Source: Gammaproteobacteria bacterium
Lineage (GTDB): Bacteria > Pseudomonadota > Gammaproteobacteria > GCA-2400775
Direction: 5' to 3'
DNA length: 64,000 bases
Assembly (NCBI GenBank): GCA_015492075.1
Contig: WGFU01000037.1
Location: 74,941-138,940 of the forward strand
Under the pieces are notes generated by a model. It searched no databases. It was given only the letters and a program-made list of their open reading frames with translations, and had not been told where the DNA came from. Positions 57,344-64,000 of this stretch are shown here, in pieces (the stretch's first letter is position 1; every line of letters begins with the position of its first letter). The position numbers were made by a program, and so were the translations under genes.

Positions 57344-58396
57344 CTATATCGTTTTTTGCCAGCCTATGTGAAACACACTATCCACCTCCAATTGCGGACC
57401 CTCCAGATTTTGCTGAATCGGGCGCGAATACTCGACAGCGAGTCGATGCCCTTTAAAATAACCGCTACGCACCAGGTAATTGATAGCAATCCCCAAATCG
57501 GTGCGGCGCCCCGCACGTAGATCTGCTCTCGCCGTCGGCACAACACCAATGCCATTCATTGGATTGGTCACTAATAAATCTGGGTCAGCGCCATCAATAT
57601 TGGCCCATTTTGACCAAGCCAAACGGGCACTGACGCTGAAGCTGGAATTGATGCGTTGCGCCAGCCAAGCCGTCGCCTGATATTGATCACCCAGCGTATA
57701 GTCCCGGCTGTTCTCGCCCAGGCGCAGGGTGGCCATGCCCTGCGCACCCCATGACCAGACGCCTGAGGACTGGCCCAAATAAGTGATCCCCGGCATGATG
57801 TCATAAGTACCCGAACCCAAACGCATGGGGTAGGGCAGCAAACTGTTCGCGCCCATCGGGGTCGCGTCCCTGGTATCGATATCCCCGGTCGGTACACTGA
57901 GGCCAAAATTGGCGTGCCAGCGCTGGCCGTCACGATCAAAAAACTTGTACATGCCACCGACGCGAATATCACCAATGCCTTCTGATTCGGTGGTAAAACT
58001 AACGCCCGTACGGGTCACATGATCCATGCTTAGCTTGATGTAAGGCAGCATGCCCATTAAGGTCAATTTGTCATTAACCGCATACATGGCGCCAAACATA
58101 TGCATTTCCATGGTCATACTCAGTGGCGTCACAAGAAAACCATCTGTGCCCGCAGACGAGCCATCAGGGCCGTTCAATACCTGCTCGGCGCTGAGGCGAT
58201 TACTACCATCGCGGTTGCCTTCCATATCCATGTTCATGTAGCGGTATGACAGCATGAGTTCGCCGGTTTTATGGGTATGATCCCCCATCACGCCGATCGG
58301 TGCATGGCTGTCCGGCGCGGCCAGATCCCAATCATGCGCCTGCGCCAGCGATGATAGGCTGAGCAAGGAAATAAGCAGCAGTTTTGCTCTTAGCAT
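57344..58396 (-). CDS. Putative outer-membrane beta-barrel 'transporter' with His/Met-rich N-terminus
   Basis: Signal peptide, DSHAPIGVMGDHTH, MTMEMHMFGAM, GIGDI, PYPMRLGSGT.D, amphipathic strands, C-terminal GWQ. Confidence 0.75.
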   Translation of the reverse strand: MLRAKLLLISLLSLSSLAQAHDWDLAAPDSHAPIGVMGDHTHKTGELMLSYRYMNMDMEGNRDGSNRLSAEQVLNGPDGSSAGTDGFLVTPLSMTMEMHMFGAMYAVNDKLTLMGMLPYIKLSMDHVTRTGVSFTTESEGIGDIRVGGMYKFFDRDGQRWHANFGLSVPTGDIDTRDATPMGANSLLPYPMRLGSGTYDIMPGITYLGQSSGVWSWGAQGMATLRLGENSRDYTLGDQYQATAWLAQRINSSFSVSARLAWSKWANIDGADPDLLVTNPMNGIGVVPTARADLRAGRRTDLGIAINYLVRSGYFKGHRLAVEYSRPIQQNLEGPQLEVDSVFHIGWQKTI

Positions 58397-58462
58397 TGAA
58401 GTCCCCTAAGGTCTGTTTAACGTTGGCGCATTTTAGGAGCGAGCATGCAAGACAAGTGAAAA

Positions 58463-58481
58463 CTGCGACAATTTGCCGCAG
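58463..58481. promoter_or_regulatory. RegA/PrrA(RoxR)-like binding palindrome
   Basis: CTGCGACAATTTGCCGCAG matches GCGRC-N5-GNCGC, about 66 nt upstream of the beta-barrel gene. Confidence 0.55.
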
Positions 58482-58532
58482 CGCGTCAACCATCGTTTGG
58501 TAGCGGCCGCGACCGGTCTGGCCGCCCGAGTA

Positions 58533-59342
58533 TTACAGGCCTTCGACGCTGATCAGGCGATTCGTACCATCAAGCGGCAACGCACTGAGCTTGCCACCCC
58601 AGACACAACCCGTATCCAGGGCAACCACGCCGTTGCCTATATAACCGCCAATGGTCGACCAATGACCAAAGACGATGGACAGATCGCGGCTGGCTCGATC
58701 GGCCAGCGCAAACCAGGGCTGGAGTCCTGGCGCCTGGCTGCCAAAGGTGCCCTTTTCCTCCAGCGCCAATGCGCCGTCTTTGTCACAATAACGCAGGCGC
58801 GTAAAACAATTGATAATGAAACGGCGGCGCGCTGTCGCCGTCATGGCGCTATCCCAGCGATTAGGCTCATTGCCGTACATGGTGCCCAGGAAACGGCCAT
58901 AATCGTCGGCCTGCAAACAGGCCTCGACCTCGCGCGCGCAGCGTTGCGCCAGCGCTAGATCCCACTGCGGTGGCAACCCGGCGTGGAGCATGGTGACACC
59001 AAGCGCTGCATCATGATGCAGCAGGGGCCGGCAGCGCAGCCAGTCAATCAACTCATCACGATCATGCGCCTCAAGCACATCATGAAAGGTATCTTTTTTG
59101 TGATAACGTAAATGACCATTGGCAACCGCCAGCAGATGCAGGTCATGATTGCCCAGGACACAAATCGCCTGCTCACCCAGGCCTTTGATAAAACGTAGTA
59201 CGGCCAAAGAGTCAGGCCCGCGATTGACCAGGTCTCCCGCAAACCAAAGCATGTCCTGTCCAGGGCTAAATGCAATTCGCTCAAGCAGGCGCTGCAAAGG
59301 CTCGTAGCAGCCCTGTATGTCACCGATCGCATATGTTGTCAT
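58533..59342 (-). CDS. apaH: Symmetrical Ap4A hydrolase
   Basis: YAIGDIQGC, GDLVNRGP.S, LGNHDLHLL, HAG, FGHW, LDTGCVWGG.L. Confidence 0.97.
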   Translation of the reverse strand: MTTYAIGDIQGCYEPLQRLLERIAFSPGQDMLWFAGDLVNRGPDSLAVLRFIKGLGEQAICVLGNHDLHLLAVANGHLRYHKKDTFHDVLEAHDRDELIDWLRCRPLLHHDAALGVTMLHAGLPPQWDLALAQRCAREVEACLQADDYGRFLGTMYGNEPNRWDSAMTATARRRFIINCFTRLRYCDKDGALALEEKGTFGSQAPGLQPWFALADRASRDLSIVFGHWSTIGGYIGNGVVALDTGCVWGGKLSALPLDGTNRLISVEGL

Positions 59343-59432
59343 AGAATATTTTATTGCATCCTGATGCTTGCACCTGACTCAGGCAACGGTGATAATAGCT
59401 TGCTTATACAGCTGATAAAAAGTGTTAATCCT

Positions 59433-60044
59433 GTGAAAATATTTTTGCTAGCTCGTCCCCGTTCTGCTTGCCTGGTATTATTGTTTAGCACCCTGCTGGC
59501 GCTGACCGGCTGTTCTACGATCAATAAATTAAACCCGTTCTCTAAAGATGGCGATGAAGCAGCAGCGCCGGTTGCCAGTGGCGAATTTACCGGGCGTGGC
59601 CCGGTGGCACTGGAAACCAACCCGCCTGGCGCTAGCGTTATTACCTTGGGGCGCATTCTGGGCAAAACCCCGTTGCGAGTAGAAGAAAGAGATATTTTCC
59701 CCCTGATTTATGCCAACGAGCTAAAACCCATTTACGGTAAGGTACGTTTTAAGCTCAAAGGGTGTAAAACTGTCACGCGCCAGATCACACCGGAAGATAT
59801 CGCCGCTGGCGTTAAGGTTGATCTGGAATGCGGTGCAGCGGCTACACGCAAACAGGCTGCTTCTGACAACAATCGCACTAGCAGCGATAGCTTTGATACC
59901 TCCATTAATGCGCCACTATATAGCGGCGACAATAACATTAAGGTACGCTTGCTACGCGTCAAGAACTTACTTGAAGAAGGCTTGATCACGCAGGATGAAG
60001 CCGATGCTATTCGCAAACGTATTTTGCAAGACCCCAGCCTTTAA
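59433..60044 (+). CDS. PEGA-domain lipoprotein with a SHOCT-like C-terminus
   Basis: Lipobox LTGC, ETNPPGA.V....LGKTP, C-terminal L..LLEEGLIT..E....RKRIL. Confidence 0.72.
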   Translation: MKIFLLARPRSACLVLLFSTLLALTGCSTINKLNPFSKDGDEAAAPVASGEFTGRGPVALETNPPGASVITLGRILGKTPLRVEERDIFPLIYANELKPIYGKVRFKLKGCKTVTRQITPEDIAAGVKVDLECGAAATRKQAASDNNRTSSDSFDTSINAPLYSGDNNIKVRLLRVKNLLEEGLITQDEADAIRKRILQDPSL

Positions 60045-60481
60045 GTCGTACGCAAATAAAAGGTAGCAGGCCCATCGTTAACCAGATGGACCTGCATATC
60101 TGCGCCAAAAACACCACTTTCAACACACTCATGCTTACGCTGCGCATAAGCGAGCGCATGTTGAAGCAATTCTCTGCCTAGCTCAGGGCTCGCAGCCTGA
60201 GTAAAACTAGGACGCAAACCCTTGTTGGTATCCGCAGCCAAGGTAAATTGCGGCACCAGCAATAAACCACCATCGGTCTCTATTAGGCTGCAATTCATGC
60301 GCCCGTTATTATCGGAAAATAAGCGGTATGCCAAAACACGATCAATCATCCACTCAACACGAGCTTGTGTGTCATCACGCTCTACAGCGGCGAATACGAG
60401 CAGCCCACTCTCGATCTGCGCCACACGCTTATTGTCTATTTCAACGGCTGCCGACCTAACGCGCTGTAATAAAGTGATCAT
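60041..60481 (-). CDS. dtd: D-aminoacyl-tRNA deacylase
   Basis: LLQRV..A.V, R.F....G.MN, PQFTL..D..KG.RPSF, FGA.M.V...NDGP. RBS AGGAGG. Confidence 0.95.
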   Translation of the reverse strand: MITLLQRVRSAAVEIDNKRVAQIESGLLVFAAVERDDTQARVEWMIDRVLAYRLFSDNNGRMNCSLIETDGGLLLVPQFTLAADTNKGLRPSFTQAASPELGRELLQHALAYAQRKHECVESGVFGADMQVHLVNDGPATFYLRTT

Positions 60482-60979
60482 CTATAGCCACCCCTCCTAA
60501 ATAGGCCAACAAAGACATCTGACCCGCGCACCAGAGCACTGGCGATGTCTTTCTCGATGCTAGCCGGCCTGATTACTGCCCGCCAAGACATAACATCATA
60601 ACGGCGAAACAGCTCAATCACAGCAAAATACCCTGCAAAACATGCCCAAAATATACGGGAAAATCGTGACGCTTACAGCCATGGCACGGAATACGCGCCT
60701 GGTTACAACAAGATCGTTATTCCATAAAGAGCGCGCTATCGATTGCCTACGCTTATATGACGGCGAATCCGCTCAATATCCTGTACCAGTAACCACATTG
60801 TGTTGTTTTTAATACAGACATATAGTGTCCAGCGGACACAGTCACGTTGATCAAATCAAGCAATGCGGGTCACCTTGCGAATAATATAAAGTGCTTCTCA
60901 TGCACAGCCTCAAGGCTCACATGTGGTCAAACACCTACAAGAAATACTTCCTTAAGCGGACAGACTTTATAATCTGATC

Positions 60980-61780
60980 CGCCGATACTACAATCACTGG
61001 ATGTCATGCAGGGTTCAGGGATGAGCCCAATCTCCATATCACGCATCATCAAGCCCACCTTCAACTTTTCGCAGAATCAGCTGTTATGAAATCACGTACC
61101 AACAATGGCTGGCCAGATTGCTCCTCTGGCAAACCTTGCCCAACTAGTGTTGAAATATTTTGTGTAGGTAATTTACCTACACAAAATACTGATCTACGCC
61201 GACATCAGCTTCAATGGCTACTGTCGATACAATGAGTCAGGAGTATGGCACTCGGTTCATGGACGAACCTTACTATCGGATCAGCCAAATCTGGTTTGAA
61301 CAGGAAAAAATCCGCTCAGGAGAGCTATTTTATGGATTTTCTTACAAACGTGTCGGCAATATCCTACATAAAATTGATTGGAAATCTGCGATAGTAGTCT
61401 TCGCTGATCGGAATCGGCCCAGGACGGTGGTTCACGGATGAACCCTTCACTCTTTCCACCCCTCGCTGTCTTTTATAAAATCCCAAGATATATCTTCGAT
61501 GCGGTCACGTACGCAAACTGTCTACTTTGTCCTACAGCCAAATCAATCTGAATTTGGCATGATGGTGTTCCGACGGAGCGGAAGATTATTCGTTCAAGGA
61601 TGAACGACTTCTCTTCCCTCCCCCGGCCATAACTGACAAACATTCGCTTAGCAATGAACCAAGGGGATACAAAACGGCGCCGCATAGTGTAATAAAACAC
61701 CCAAAATACGCTCCGCCCCCATCTAACCTGCACTTCTCTTTTTTGTCTTGTCATCCTCCACTTAGCGCATGGATGCAGCA
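60980..61780 (+). ncRNA. Putative CsrB/Rsm-type CsrA-sequestering sRNA(s), tandem modules
   Basis: Four hairpins share GTTCANGGANGARC with an ANGGAN hexaloop (61011, 61254, 61429, 61590). Extra GGA sites at 61314 and 61767, and 10 GGA in 61240-61440. Boundaries approximate. Confidence 0.72.
61156..61188. promoter_or_regulatory. Perfect 33-bp palindrome containing a GacA/UvrY-like box
   Basis: TATTTTGTGTAGGTAA-T-TTACCTACACAAAATA; core TGTAGG-N7-CCTACA. Confidence 0.6.
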
Positions 61781-61785
61781 GCGTC

Positions 61786-64000
61786 CTAGTCGGGTTCGTA
61801 GCCAAGGTTTGGCGCCAACCAGCGCTCCGCCGCTGCCATCGTCATGCCTTTGCGTTGCGCATAGTCTTCAACCTGGTCGCGGTTAATCACCCCCAAGCCA
61901 AAATAACGTGCATCGGGATGACTGATATACCAGCCGCTGACCGCTGCTGTCGGCACCATGGCAAAGCTTTCCGTAATCTCGATACCAGCATGCGTCAGAG
62001 GATCAATCAACTGCCATAGTAAGGTCTTTTCGGTATGGTCGGGGCAGGCAGGATAACCGGGGGCCGGCCGAATACCTTGATAGTGCTCCGCAATCAGTTG
62101 TTCATTGTCCAAGCGCTCATCACTGGCATAGCCCCAGTACTCCTTACGCACACGCTCATGCAGGTATTCCGCATAGGCTTCTGCCAAGCGGTCAGCCAGT
62201 GCCTTAAGCAAAATATCGGAATAATCATCGTGTGCGGCGGCAAAACGTTGTAATTGTTGCTCGATACCCGTACCTGCGGTAACAGCAAAGCCTCCAATAT
62301 AGTCGGCCACGCCCGTTTCCTTGGGTGCGATATAGTCCGCCAGACATTGATTCGGTCGCCCAGGTGGCTTTTGCAATTGCTGACGCAGCTGATGCAGGGT
62401 CAGCAACACCTCGGTGCGAGATTCATCGGTGTAAACTTCAATGTCATCGTCATTGACTGAATTGGCAGGGAATAAGCCAAATACTGCCCGTGCATGCAGC
62501 CATTTCTCATCAATAAGTTTATCAAGCATGGCCTGTGCATCAGCAAACAAAGCACGAGCCGTCTCTCCGACTAGCTCATCATCAAGTAGCTTCGGGTAAC
62601 TGCCCGCCAGCTCCCACGCCTTAAAGAAGGGTGTCCAATCGATATAATCGCGTAATAGCGACAGATCTTGGTCTTCAATCACCGTCAAACCCTGTCGCTT
62701 CGGGATCGCCGGCTTGTAAGTCGACCAATCGATCTTTACCTTATTCGCACGCGCATCAGCCAGACTGAGCCAGTTCGTTTTTGCTTGCTTGCCCGTATGT
62801 CGCTCGCGTACCTGCCCGTATTCCTTATCTATTTGTTTTAAATATGGTGCACGCAAATCTTCGCTGACAAGGTTTTGGGCAACGCCCACGGCACGCGAAG
62901 CATCCTTGACGTAGATCGTTGCTCCCTCGTAGCCAGGGGCAATTTTAACCGCAGTATGCACGCGTGACGTGGTCGCGCCACCAATCAATAGGGGGACATT
63001 CAGACCAAGACGTTGCATCTCTTTAGCCACATGGCTCATCTCTTCTAGAGATGGTGTAATCAGGCCGGACAAGCCAATAATATCGACTTGCTCTTTCACC
63101 GCAGTATCAAGAATTTTTGCGGCAGGGACCATCACCCCAAGATCAATAATCTCAAAGTTATTGCACTGCAATACGACACTAACAATATTCTTGCCAATAT
63201 CATGAACATCACCTTTAACGGTCGCCATTAAAATCTTGCCGTTACTGCTTACTTCAGTCTTGCCTGCTTCTATAAAGGGTAACAAATAAGCCACCGCCTG
63301 CTTCATGACGCGCGCGCTTTTCACCACCTGGGGCAAAAACATTTTGCCCTCACCAAAAAGGTCGCCAACGATATTCATGCCATCCATCAGCGGCCCTTCA
63401 ATTACTTCAATAGGGCGTTCAAAACCTTGTCTGGCTTCTTCGGTATCCTCGTCAATAAAGGTATTGATACCTTTTACCAGGGCATGCGCCAAACGTTCTC
63501 TGACCGCAAGCTTGCGCCATTCCATATCATTAGCATTGGCCTTTTTGGCACCATCACCGCGATAATCATCGGCGATTTCCAGCAAACGTTCAGTCGCGTC
63601 ATCACGACGATTCAGAATGACGTCTTCTACGCGTTTGCGTAGCTCCTCTGGCAGATCATCGTAGACGGCGAGCTGGCCGGCGTTGACAATGCCCATATCC
63701 ATGCCAGCTTTGATCGCATGATAGAGAAATACGGAGTGGATCGCTTCGCGCACCAAATTATTGCCGCGAAACGAAAACGACACATTACTGACACCGCCGG
63801 ATATTTTTGCATACGGCAAAGTGTTTTTTATTTCTCGTGTTGCCTCAATAAAATCAACCGCGTAGTTATTGTGTTCTTGAATACCAGTAGCAACTGCAAA
63901 AATATTGGGGTCAAAAATAATGTCTTCGGGCGGGAACCCTATTTCGTCGACTAATATTCGATAGGCACGGGTACAAATTTCAACCTTTCGCGCCCTGGTA
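61786..64000 (-). CDS. metH: B12-dependent methionine synthase (5' end outside window)
   Basis: [56 protein letters not shown]. Frame is open to the window edge. Confidence 0.98.

What the first reader, a model, noticed from the sequence alone, without database searches (positions are those of the whole stretch)
60922..61780. Tandem array of box-plus-GGA-hairpin modules: candidate cluster of miniature CsrA/RsmA sponge RNAs
Seen: four hairpins GGGTTC-AGGGAT-GAGCCC (61011), GGTTC-ATGGAC-GAACC (61254), GGTTC-ACGGAT-GAACC (61429) and TCGTTC-AAGGAT-GAACGA (61590), plus a weak fifth GC-ATGGAT-GC (61767). They are spaced 160-245 bp apart, all on the + strand, and stem differences preserve pairing. 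Each strong hairpin has a second GGA 14-21 nt upstream, most have a pyrimidine-rich tail, and each lies 53-72 bp after a TGT...CCTACA box. Known: (A/U)CANGGANG(U/A) hexaloop hairpins are the high-affinity CsrA/RsmA site, and a CsrA dimer binds two GGA sites. Inference: instead of one CsrB, this could be a serial array of separately activated short sponges giving graded titration. One long CsrB-like RNA is the alternative, because clear terminators are missing.
Basis: partly seen in the sequence, partly recalled or inferred. Interest (0 to 1): 0.85.

Follow-up and report, generated by a model that had tools for sequence, protein, structure and literature searches.

The report
Tandem Gac-box small RNA genes
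Four small RNA genes in a row, each with its own regulator-binding box and a hairpin that looks like a binding site for the global regulator CsrA, probably act as decoys that soak up CsrA; this is a new family of a well-known kind of regulator.

Summary
Four box-plus-GGA-hairpin modules lie on the + strand at window 60922-61630, between dtd and the 3' end of metH. The proposed fifth hairpin (61767) has no box and no counterpart in relatives.

The modules form four orthologous families (A-D), kept in 7 of 8 other genomes of the same genus. Within each family the box-to-hairpin spacing is rigid, a -10 element is conserved, and the hairpin stem shows compensatory changes. Conservation falls off 10-20 nt after the hairpin.

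The box fits the published UvrY/GacA box TGTAAGN6CTTACA. The genome encodes csrA, a UvrY/GacA equivalog and a BarA-like kinase. In another family of the same class, the same box variant at the same pip-dtd locus drives a canonical ~190-nt, 9-11-GGA, terminator-bearing RNA.

Best reading: four separately promoted, Gac-activated CsrA-titrating sRNAs with 2-3 GGA sites each. No Rfam model detects them.

Not shown: transcription, RNA ends (there are no clear terminators), CsrA binding, graded titration. Multi-copy and tandem Rsm genes are already known in Pseudomonas and Azotobacter. I therefore rate this a new member of a known kind; the very small unit size would be the unusual part if confirmed.

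The parts
60922..60939 (+). Box A (TGTGGTCAAACACCTACA), a GacA/UvrY-type box. Its centre lies about -65.5 from the predicted start.
   Evidence: Orthologous boxes in 8 of 8 genus genomes read TGTAAG/TGTAGG/TGTAAT...CYTACA.
60984..60989 (+). Predicted -10 of module A (GATACT), 44 nt after the box end.
   Evidence: The ATA core is invariant in alignment A4; spacing. The promoter itself is inferred.
60996..61035 (+). Predicted RNA A core. It has a 5' GGA (60999-61001) and hairpin GGGTTCA-GGGA-TGAGCCC (61011-61028). The 5' end (+/-2 nt) and the 3' end are inferred.
   Evidence: 7-pair consensus hairpin, 3 pairs with double changes; identity 0.91 at the hairpin, 0.49 from about 12 nt after it.
61163..61181 (+). 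Box B, a perfect palindrome TGTAGGTAAtTTACCTACA with a 7-nt spacer.
   Evidence: (I2). The same box is in G004 and G002; G006 has a variant box (TGTAGGGTAGTGCCTACA).
61226..61231 (+). Predicted -10 of module B (GATACA), 44 nt after the box end.
   Evidence: Inferred.
61238..61345 (+). Predicted RNA B. Its conserved core is AGGA at the 5' end plus hairpin 61254-61269. In this genome a non-conserved extension follows, with 4 more GGA, a GCTC-AGGA-GAGC hairpin (61314-61325) and a weak AAAATCC/GGATTTT terminator-like stem (61307-61340).
   Evidence: MFE -26.6 kcal/mol, z = -1.5. The extension is not conserved in G004 or G002.
61341..61346 (+). Extra half-site (CTTACA; CCTACA in 4 of the 6 genomes) 4 nt upstream of box C.
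   Evidence: Seen in 6 of 6 C modules. Role unknown.
61351..61368 (+). Box C (TGTCGGCAATATCCTACA). Its centre lies about -42.5.
   Evidence: The right half-site and spacer are invariant in 6 of 6 genomes.
61390..61395 (+). Predicted -10 of module C (GATAGT), 21 nt after the box end.
   Evidence: Inferred.
61402..61465 (+). Predicted RNA C. Parts: 5' hairpin GCTGAT-CGGA-ATCGGC (61403-61418), linker CCAGGACGG, hairpin GGTTCA-CGGA-TGAACC (61429-61444), then a T/C-rich tail.
   Evidence: 17 consensus pairs; identity 0.95-0.97 over the RNA, 0.6 after it; model R2: 83-97 bits in 6 genus genomes only. The single-sequence fold is no better than shuffles (z = 0.02).
61519..61536 (+). Box D (TGTCTACTTTGTCCTACA). 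Its centre lies about -42.5.
   Evidence: Present in 8 of 8 genomes.
61558..61563 (+). Predicted -10 of module D (CATGAT), 21 nt after the box end.
   Evidence: Inferred.
61570..61628 (+). Predicted RNA D. Two 5' GGAs (GACGGAGCGGAAG) come first, then hairpin TCGTTCA-AGGA-TGAACGA (61590-61607), then a CTTCTCTTCCCTCC tail. The tail can pair back on the 5' GGAs to form one long hairpin.
   Evidence: flagged terminator-like; 18 consensus pairs; model R1: 64-91 bits in 8 genus genomes only; -26.1 kcal/mol, z = -4.15. The outer stem has no significant covariation.
61767..61776 (+). I do not count it as part of the system.
   Evidence: No box, not conserved, 10 nt from the metH stop.
60041..60481 (-). 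dtd (D-Tyr-tRNA deacylase), the left flank.
   Evidence: PF02580, E = 1.6e-48.
60748..60867 (-). Remnant of the alpha/beta-hydrolase (pip-like) gene that is intact next to the array in relatives. It carries an in-frame stop.
   Evidence: tblastn 18/40 identities, E = 1e-7; blastn hits fall inside the relatives' hydrolase ORFs.
61786..63999 (-). metH 3' part (convergent with the array), the right flank.
   Evidence: PF02965, PF02607, PF02310, PF00809.

Best explanation
The stretch 60922-61630 holds four paralogous small-RNA genes (A, B, C, D) on the + strand. Each has its own promoter activated by the GacA/UvrY response regulator bound to a TGTNNN-N6/7-CCTACA box. The box is centred near -65 in A and B and near -42 in C and D.

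Each transcript starts a few nucleotides before its first GGA. It carries 2-3 GGA motifs, one of them in the tetraloop of a 6-7-bp hairpin whose core CANGGAYG resembles the SELEX optimum for CsrA. The RNAs bind CsrA dimers and so relieve CsrA-mediated control of mRNAs, as CsrB/RsmX/Y/Z do.

Shown here: the anatomy, its conservation, stem covariation, the match to the published box, the presence of csrA, gacA and a barA-like gene, and synteny with a canonical Csr-type RNA in another family.

Inferred: transcription, start sites, 3' ends, GacA dependence and CsrA binding. The 3' ends could lie just after the hairpin, by weak intrinsic or Rho-dependent termination.
For: 1. Conservation. Seven of 8 other genus genomes carry the locus. 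Families: A in 8 of 8 array-bearing genomes, B in 5 of 8, C in 6 of 8, D in 8 of 8.
2. Fixed geometry. Box end to hairpin is 74 nt in A (72 once), 74-77 in B, 62 in C (61 once) and 56-57 in D. A conserved -10-like hexamer lies 44 nt (A, B) or 21 nt (C, D) after the box.
3. Footprint. Column identity is 0.9-0.97 over box, -10 and RNA core, and about 0.5 from 10-20 nt after the hairpin. Spacers vary in length, and modules are lost singly.
4. Hairpin covariation. 4 of 7 pairs have double changes and 0 of 500 shuffles reach the score.
5. GGA bias. There are 75 GGA against 3 TCC in 1132 nt of predicted cores, against 7.3 GGA per kb in the window. CANGGAYG is present in 24 of 27 loops. Part of this enrichment is by selection, because the loop GGA defines a module.
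6. Literature. The box matches TGTAAGN6CTTACA (PMC3171408). The SELEX consensus is RUACARGGAUGU, and a CsrA dimer bridges sites 10-63 nt apart (PMC7652899).
7. Partner genes. Two csrA loci score 119 bits against cut-off 73. UvrY/GacA equivalog NF007018 scores 280.2-281.9 bits against cut-off 280, and the next family scores 166. A 910-aa BarA-like kinase matches full length at 601 bits.
8. A box-plus-hairpin pattern scan of 401 genomes of the class found 2 hits outside the genus. Both are multi-GGA RNAs with a terminator.
9. One of these RNAs recurs in 7 of 12 genomes of its family. It is always divergent from dtd (7 of 7 loci) and pip (5 of 7), the same neighbours as here.
10. Modules are confined to this locus. 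22 of 24 genus-wide pattern hits lie in the array and reversed-pattern controls gave 0.
Against: - No expression evidence of any kind; no RNA run was listed.
- No convincing intrinsic terminator. Only weak hairpin-plus-T-rich-tail matches were found in G000 D, G004 D, G007 C and G001 D.
- No Rfam family matched at E <= 1. The clear multi-GGA RNAs of other families are missed too, so this weighs little.
- Only 2-3 GGA per conserved unit, fewer than known sponges.
- Predicted RNAs A and C fold no better than shuffles (z = -0.31 and 0.02).
- In D the two upstream GGAs are predicted to be paired in a very stable stem (z = -4.15).
- The GacA call sits right at the curated cut-off, and the BarA-like protein is below its cut-off (601 against 890).
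- uvrC is not next to gacA; miaA is.
- One of the two csrA loci lies at a contig end beside an IS and a tRNA, and may be a strain duplicate in a MAG.
- Three of 27 modules have a damaged loop or stem: B in G006 has AGA, D in G007 has GGT, and B in G007 has no box.
Confidence: 0.62

Rival explanations
1. One long or nested CsrB-like RNA. Transcription from box A, and from the internal promoters, reads through all modules. The functional molecules would then be about 150-650 nt RNAs with up to about 16 GGA, ending after the strong D hairpin.
For: No clear terminator lies between the modules. The D extended hairpin is exceptionally stable (z = -4.15) and sits at the array's end. The array holds 16 GGA in 719 nt. 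Related lineages use one long multi-GGA RNA at the same locus.
Against: Every module keeps its own box and -10 at fixed spacing in up to 8 genomes. Inter-module spacers are unconserved, vary from about 60 to about 300 nt, and are G-poor. Modules are lost one at a time. G004 has a lone module on another contig. In G001 D and G007 C a T-run directly follows the hairpin; G004 D has a weaker T/C-rich tail.
Confidence: 0.2
2. Gac-dependent small RNAs whose main job is base pairing. The C/U-rich tails (CTCTTCCCTCC and the like) would act as anti-Shine-Dalgarno seeds on mRNAs, with the GGA hairpin serving as a structural or CsrA-recruiting element.
For: Tails are pyrimidine-rich and G-poor in all families. 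The D tail is partly conserved.
Against: The tails are the least conserved part in A, B and C. In D the tail is predicted to be paired inside the RNA's own stem. No target search was done.
Confidence: 0.08
3. Not RNA genes. The boxes would be regulator sites acting on the flanking genes (pip-dtd or metH), or the modules would be decaying repeats with no present function.
For: Box A lies about 45 nt from the pip start in relatives. A palindromic box could act in both directions. No expression data exist.
Against: Stem covariation and strand-specific GGA bias (75 against 3) point to selection on a + strand RNA. Boxes B-D are far from any start codon. The elements are not dispersed in the genome.
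Confidence: 0.05

Closest known systems
Tandem rsmX-1/rsmX-2 of Pseudomonas brassicacearum, P. fluorescens F113 and P. stutzeri, and up to five rsmX copies in P. syringae (PMC7911923, passages read)
   Same: Gac-dependent sponge sRNA genes duplicated head to tail. Each has its own GacA upstream activating sequence and GGA motifs in hairpin loops. The copies differ in UAS quality and expression level.
   Different: rsmX RNAs are about 110 nt with at least 3 exposed GGA and defined ends, and their copies are 75-81% identical. Here there are four diverged paralogues with only 2-3 conserved GGA, no clear terminator, two promoter geometries, and no Rfam RsmX match.
RsmZ1-7 plus RsmY of Azotobacter vinelandii (PMC4824345, passages read)
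   Same: Many GacA-activated RsmA-binding RNAs in one genome, expressed to different levels.
   Different: Those belong to the RsmZ/RsmY families. Whether they are arrayed was not checked here. The present RNAs are unrelated in sequence by Rfam search.
CsrB/CsrC of E. coli and CsrB1/CsrB2 of Shewanella and Vibrio (PMC3171408, PMC1488887, PMC7652899, passages read)
   Same: A UvrY box upstream, repeated GGA hairpins resembling the SELEX site, and titration of CsrA dimers.
   Different: Those are single RNAs of about 250-450 nt with many GGA (16 binding motifs in the 360-nt E. coli CsrB, PMC1488887) and a strong terminator. Here a similar total (about 12-16 GGA) is spread over four promoters.
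Unnamed Csr-type sRNA of another family of the same class (G128, G407-G414; loci L179, L216-L223)
   Same: Same box variant TGTAGG-N6-CCTACA. Same position divergent from pip-dtd. An extra upstream half-site. A TTCAAGGATGAAC-like hairpin in one copy. Tandem duplication in G407.
   Different: About 190 nt, 9-11 GGA, a conserved 3' domain and a strong GC-rich terminator. BLAST detected no similarity to modules A-D.

Membership tests
Gac/UvrY-dependent Csr/Rsm sponge sRNAs (functional class) | 18-bp palindromic UvrY/GacA box (TGTAAGN6CTTACA) upstream of the gene | tested here: met
   Four boxes in the window, 26 boxes for 27 modules in 8 genomes. Halves read TGTAAG/TGTAGG...CTTACA/CCTACA. Consensus taken from PMC3171408. 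Left halves of C and D are degenerate (TGTCNG, TGTCTN). Seven boxes (4 of 8 in A, 3 of 4 in B) have a 7-nt spacer.
Gac/UvrY-dependent Csr/Rsm sponge sRNAs (functional class) | Several GGA/ANGGA motifs, mostly in hairpin loops or single-stranded stretches | tested here: inconclusive
   2-3 conserved GGA per unit and 6 in B of this genome. One lies in a covarying hairpin loop, and C has a second loop GGA. In D two GGAs are predicted to be paired. The number per RNA is below that of known members.
Gac/UvrY-dependent Csr/Rsm sponge sRNAs (functional class) | Defined transcript with a Rho-independent terminator | tested here: not met
   Only weak hairpin-plus-T-rich-tail matches. In 20 kb of the same window, terminator-like sites are barely above chance: 31 against 23.2 +/- 3.8.
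Gac/UvrY-dependent Csr/Rsm sponge sRNAs (functional class) | Cognate csrA and gacS/gacA in the genome | tested here: met
   csrA at 2 loci (119 bits, cut-off 73). UvrY/GacA NF007018 scores 280.2 bits (cut-off 280). The BarA-like 910-aa protein scores 601 bits, below its cut-off of 890.
Gac/UvrY-dependent Csr/Rsm sponge sRNAs (functional class) | GacA-dependent transcription and direct CsrA binding | not testable with these tools
   No RNA run was listed.
Rfam CsrB, CsrC, RsmX, RsmY, RsmZ and other curated families (homology) | Covariance-model match | tested here: not met
   No match at E <= 1 in window 58000-64000. Clear multi-GGA RNAs of other families of the class are not matched either.
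REP-like dispersed repeat | Many copies spread over the genome | tested here: not met
   Box and loop motifs are essentially confined to this locus in G000 and in the genus.

The most novel reading that the evidence does not exclude
In this lineage the Csr sponge has been broken into single-dimer quanta. An ancestral single CsrB-like gene next to pip-dtd was replaced by four 40-60-nt RNAs. Each offers one SELEX-like hairpin plus one or two weaker GGA sites 14-26 nt away, enough for one CsrA dimer. The CsrA-binding hairpin doubles as the transcript's 3' end. The four promoters differ in box quality and position (-42 against -65), so rising GacA~P would switch them on in steps.
Probability: 0.25. 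Interest if true: 0.6.

Novelty: new member of a known kind. Interest (0 to 1): 0.42.

Why it matters
The finding would extend the Gac-Csr cascade to an uncultured lineage of small-genome Gammaproteobacteria; one record's title (L055) calls it an uncultured Thiotrichales bacterium. It would also add sRNA families that Rfam does not hold.

If the units really are about 50 nt with 2-3 sites each, they would be the smallest dedicated CsrA decoys. They would offer a natural test of how sponge valency and promoter hierarchy shape titration.

The comparison with the single long RNA at the same pip-dtd locus in another family gives a concrete case of how sponge architecture evolves.

Tried and rejected
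- Rfam at E <= 1 on the locus gave nothing. Rfam on weak outside-genus hits of my models gave nothing. Rfam on the outside-genus multi-GGA RNAs gave nothing relevant: a tRNA, and sub-threshold SorX-like hits at a terminator.
- Covariance models R1 (D) and R2 (C) were run over 101 genomes each. Strong hits came only from the genus. The 17-24-bit hits elsewhere lie in GC-rich, coding-looking sequence without a box, and I rejected them as chance.
- The genome-contig scan used a pattern that turned out too loose. Only L055 is a true module locus; it is the same sequence as the G001 locus.
- The metagenome-contig scan with a D-specific pattern gave 6 stretches, none of them a module.
- The look-up of sequencing runs (kind rna): no RNA holder was listed.
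- The outer stem of D is 89.6% paired, but its covariation is no better than shuffles (127/500 and 65/500). I leave it as thermodynamically plausible only.
- gacA-uvrC synteny is not present; miaA lies downstream.
- A CRP-type site was considered and rejected on spacing. TGT and ACA are 12-13 nt apart here, as in the GacA box, against 10 in TGTGA-N6-TCACA. The CRP consensus is recalled, not taken from a call.
- The second perfect box, at G000 C3:757, has no GGA-rich RNA downstream.
- Supplementary files of the papers were closed and not seen. They could hold lists of predicted Csr sRNAs in other taxa (for example List L1 of PMC1488887).
- A statement that these RNAs are not in print rests only on searches. 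None of them listed a paper on Csr sRNAs of Thiotrichales; all 10 listed papers had 0 occurrences of 'Thiotrichales'.
Full report
**What is there**

Window 60482-61785 is a 1.3-kb gap between dtd (60041-60481, - strand; PF02580) and the 3' end of metH (61786 onward, - strand). Its left part (60748-60867, - strand) is a decayed piece of an alpha/beta-hydrolase (pip-like) gene. That gene is intact at this position in relatives.

Each module has three elements:
- a box TGT-N9/10-CCTACA (60922, 61163, 61351, 61519);
- a conserved -10-like hexamer (60984, 61226, 61390, 61558);
- a 6-7-bp hairpin with an NGGA tetraloop (61011, 61254, 61429, 61590), preceded by one or two further GGA 14-23 nt upstream.

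The box is far more frequent here than chance allows: 3 found against 0.22 expected, with 0 of 100 shuffles reaching 3. It is rare elsewhere, with 9 copies in the 1.65-Mb assembly, 3 of them here. The hairpin motif occurs outside the locus only twice, both times inside coding sequence. The refuting condition 'a genome-wide REP-like repeat' is therefore not met.

I drop it.

**Comparative evidence**

Seven of the 8 other genomes of the same genus carry the locus. The eighth is 75% complete. The array always abuts the 3' end of metH, while the other neighbour varies.

The modules sort into four orthologous families. A is present in 8 of 8 array-bearing genomes, B in 5 of 8, C in 6 of 8 and D in 8 of 8. 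Some copies are damaged. B of G006 has AGA in place of GGA. B of G007 has lost its box. D of G007 reads GGT.

Spacing from box end to hairpin is almost invariant within a family:

| Family | Box end to hairpin (nt) | Box end to -10 (nt) | Approx. box centre |
|---|---|---|---|
| A | 74 (72 once) | 44 | -65.5 |
| B | 74-77 | 44 | -65.5 |
| C | 62 (61 once) | 21 | -42.5 |
| D | 56-57 | 21 | -42.5 |

The promoter assignments and box centres are my inference from conserved hexamers, not measurements.

Column identity is 0.9-0.97 over box, -10 and RNA core. It falls to about 0.5 within 10-20 nt after the hairpin. Spacers between modules differ in length from about 60 to about 300 nt, and single modules are missing in some genomes. 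That pattern is what independent short genes would leave. It is not what one long structured RNA would leave.

**RNA-level signals**

- Over all 27 modules the hairpin is 89.9% paired. Four of its 7 pairs show changes on both sides (for example GGGTTC/GAGCCC, GGACTC/GAGTCC, CGTTC/GAACG, CGCTC/GAGCG). No shuffle of 500 reaches the covariation score, and slid registers pair only 19-45%. The sequences are related, so the shuffle count overstates significance, but the slid control holds.
- The loop core CANGGAYG is present in 24 of 27 modules. It overlaps the SELEX consensus RUACARGGAUGU quoted in PMC7652899.
- The predicted cores hold 75 GGA against 3 TCC in 1132 nt, compared with 7.3 GGA per kb in the window. 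The 25 loop GGAs are there by selection. The other 50 are not.
- Upstream GGAs sit 14-26 nt from the loop GGA, inside the 10-63 nt range a CsrA dimer can bridge (PMC7652899).
- C has a second conserved hairpin with a CGGA loop.
- D can fold into one long hairpin in which its two 5' GGAs pair with the pyrimidine tail. This fold is unusually stable (-26.1 kcal/mol, z = -4.15), but its outer stem shows no significant covariation.
- RNAs A and C fold no better than shuffles.

**The regulator link**

The box has the spacing and half-sites of the UvrY/GacA box TGTAAGN6CTTACA (PMC3171408; also PMC1488887). Relatives carry exact TGTAAG or CTTACA halves.

The genome encodes the following partners:
- CsrA at two loci, one after lysC and one at a contig end that may be a strain duplicate.
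- A response regulator that reaches the UvrY/SirA/GacA equivalog cut-off (280.2 bits against 280). The next family scores 166 bits.
- A 910-aa BarA-like hybrid kinase with a full-length match that stays below the curated cut-off.

A scan of 401 genomes of the class for 'box, 54-78 nt, TCANGGAYGA' found hits in the genus plus two outside it, against one hit of the reversed control. Both outside hits are obvious Csr-type genes: a box, then 9-12 GGA, then a strong terminator.

One of them (G128) has relatives in 7 of 12 genomes of its family. They have the same TGTAGG-N6-CCTACA box, a length of about 190 nt and 9-11 GGA. One genome (G407) has two copies in tandem. In all 7 loci the RNA gene is divergent from dtd, and in 5 of 7 also from pip. 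This is the same neighbourhood as the array here, where box A lies about 45 nt from the pip start in relatives. The array is thus the positional counterpart of a conventional Csr sponge gene. Rfam matches neither kind, so its silence says little.

**How it most likely works**

GacS/GacA activates four promoters. Each gives a short RNA with one high-affinity hairpin and one or two accessory GGA sites, and the RNAs titrate CsrA. Together the four supply about 12-16 sites, similar to one CsrB.

The left half-sites of C and D are degenerate but conserved as such, and box position differs between A/B and C/D. Unequal activation is therefore plausible but untested.

The 3' ends are the weakest point:
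- Only weak terminator-like matches exist. In several of them the GGA hairpin itself is followed by a T-rich tail: G000 D, G004 D, G007 C and G001 D.
- The 40 nt after the hairpins are C-rich and G-poor (320 C against 106 G). This would suit Rho loading, but that is inference.
- Canonical terminators are barely enriched in 20 kb of this window: 31 against 23.2 +/- 3.8.

Read-through into longer, nested RNAs therefore remains a live rival. I give about 0.62 to separate short sponges, 0.20 to long or nested transcripts, and about 0.8 to the broader statement that this is a Gac-Csr sRNA locus.

**Comparison with the known**

Multi-copy and tandem Gac-dependent sponge genes are established. Examples are rsmX-1/rsmX-2 in tandem, up to five rsmX in P. 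syringae (PMC7911923), and RsmZ1-7 plus RsmY in A. vinelandii (PMC4824345).

The new points are a family unknown to Rfam in an uncultured lineage, four diverged paralogues kept as an array across a genus, two promoter geometries, few sites per unit and no clear terminator. I classify it as a new member of a known kind. The 'single-dimer quanta' reading is the bolder possibility, at about 0.25.

**Limits**

Everything here is computational. The assembly is an 80%-complete MAG. Kinship labels are anonymous. The papers were read only as search listings and the passages returned by 'find'.

Noticed in passing
window 60748-60867 (- strand): Remnant of an alpha/beta-hydrolase (pip-like) gene with an in-frame stop. 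The gene is intact between dtd (or its equivalent) and the array in relatives. This explains the left 440 nt of the large gap.
   Followed up: yes
L179, L216-L223 (G128, G407-G414): A family of about 190-nt Csr-type sRNA genes with a TGTAGG-N6-CCTACA box, 9-11 GGA, a conserved 3' domain and a strong terminator. It lies divergent from pip-dtd in another family of the class. Rfam did not match the one copy tested (L179, G128). It is duplicated in tandem in G407.
   Followed up: partly
L026 (G004:C29:20839-20941): An unlinked fifth, A/B-type module (perfect box TGTAGGTAATTTACCTACA plus a GGCTCACGGATGAGC hairpin) on another contig, about 650 nt downstream of a tRNA gene.
   Followed up: partly
G000:C3:757-774 (outside the window): A second perfect palindrome, TGTAGGATATAACCTACA, in the intergenic region upstream of a ubiG-like ORF. 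No GGA-rich RNA is evident on either side. It may be a direct GacA target.
   Followed up: partly
window 61341-61346, and the equivalent in L012-L017: An extra CCTACA/CTTACA half-site 4 nt upstream of box C in 6 of 6 genomes. A similar extra half-site lies roughly 6-16 nt upstream of the boxes of the other family's sRNA genes.
   Followed up: no
window 61163-61181; L012, L013, L016, L018: Seven boxes (3 of 4 in B, 4 of 8 in A) have a 7-nt spacer instead of the canonical 6-nt one, yet they are the best palindromes.
   Followed up: no
L001 (G000:C35:8251-8406) and L002 (G000:C8:33052-33207): Two nearly identical csrA genes. One follows lysC. The other sits at a contig end next to an IS-type transposase fragment and a tRNA-like stretch. 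It may be a true paralogue or a strain duplicate in the MAG.
   Followed up: partly
L180 (G107:C280:206-500): Another box-driven RNA with about 15 GGA and a terminator, next to thyA, in a further family of the class. Its terminator region gives a sub-threshold Rfam SorX match (33.5 bits against 46.6).
   Followed up: no
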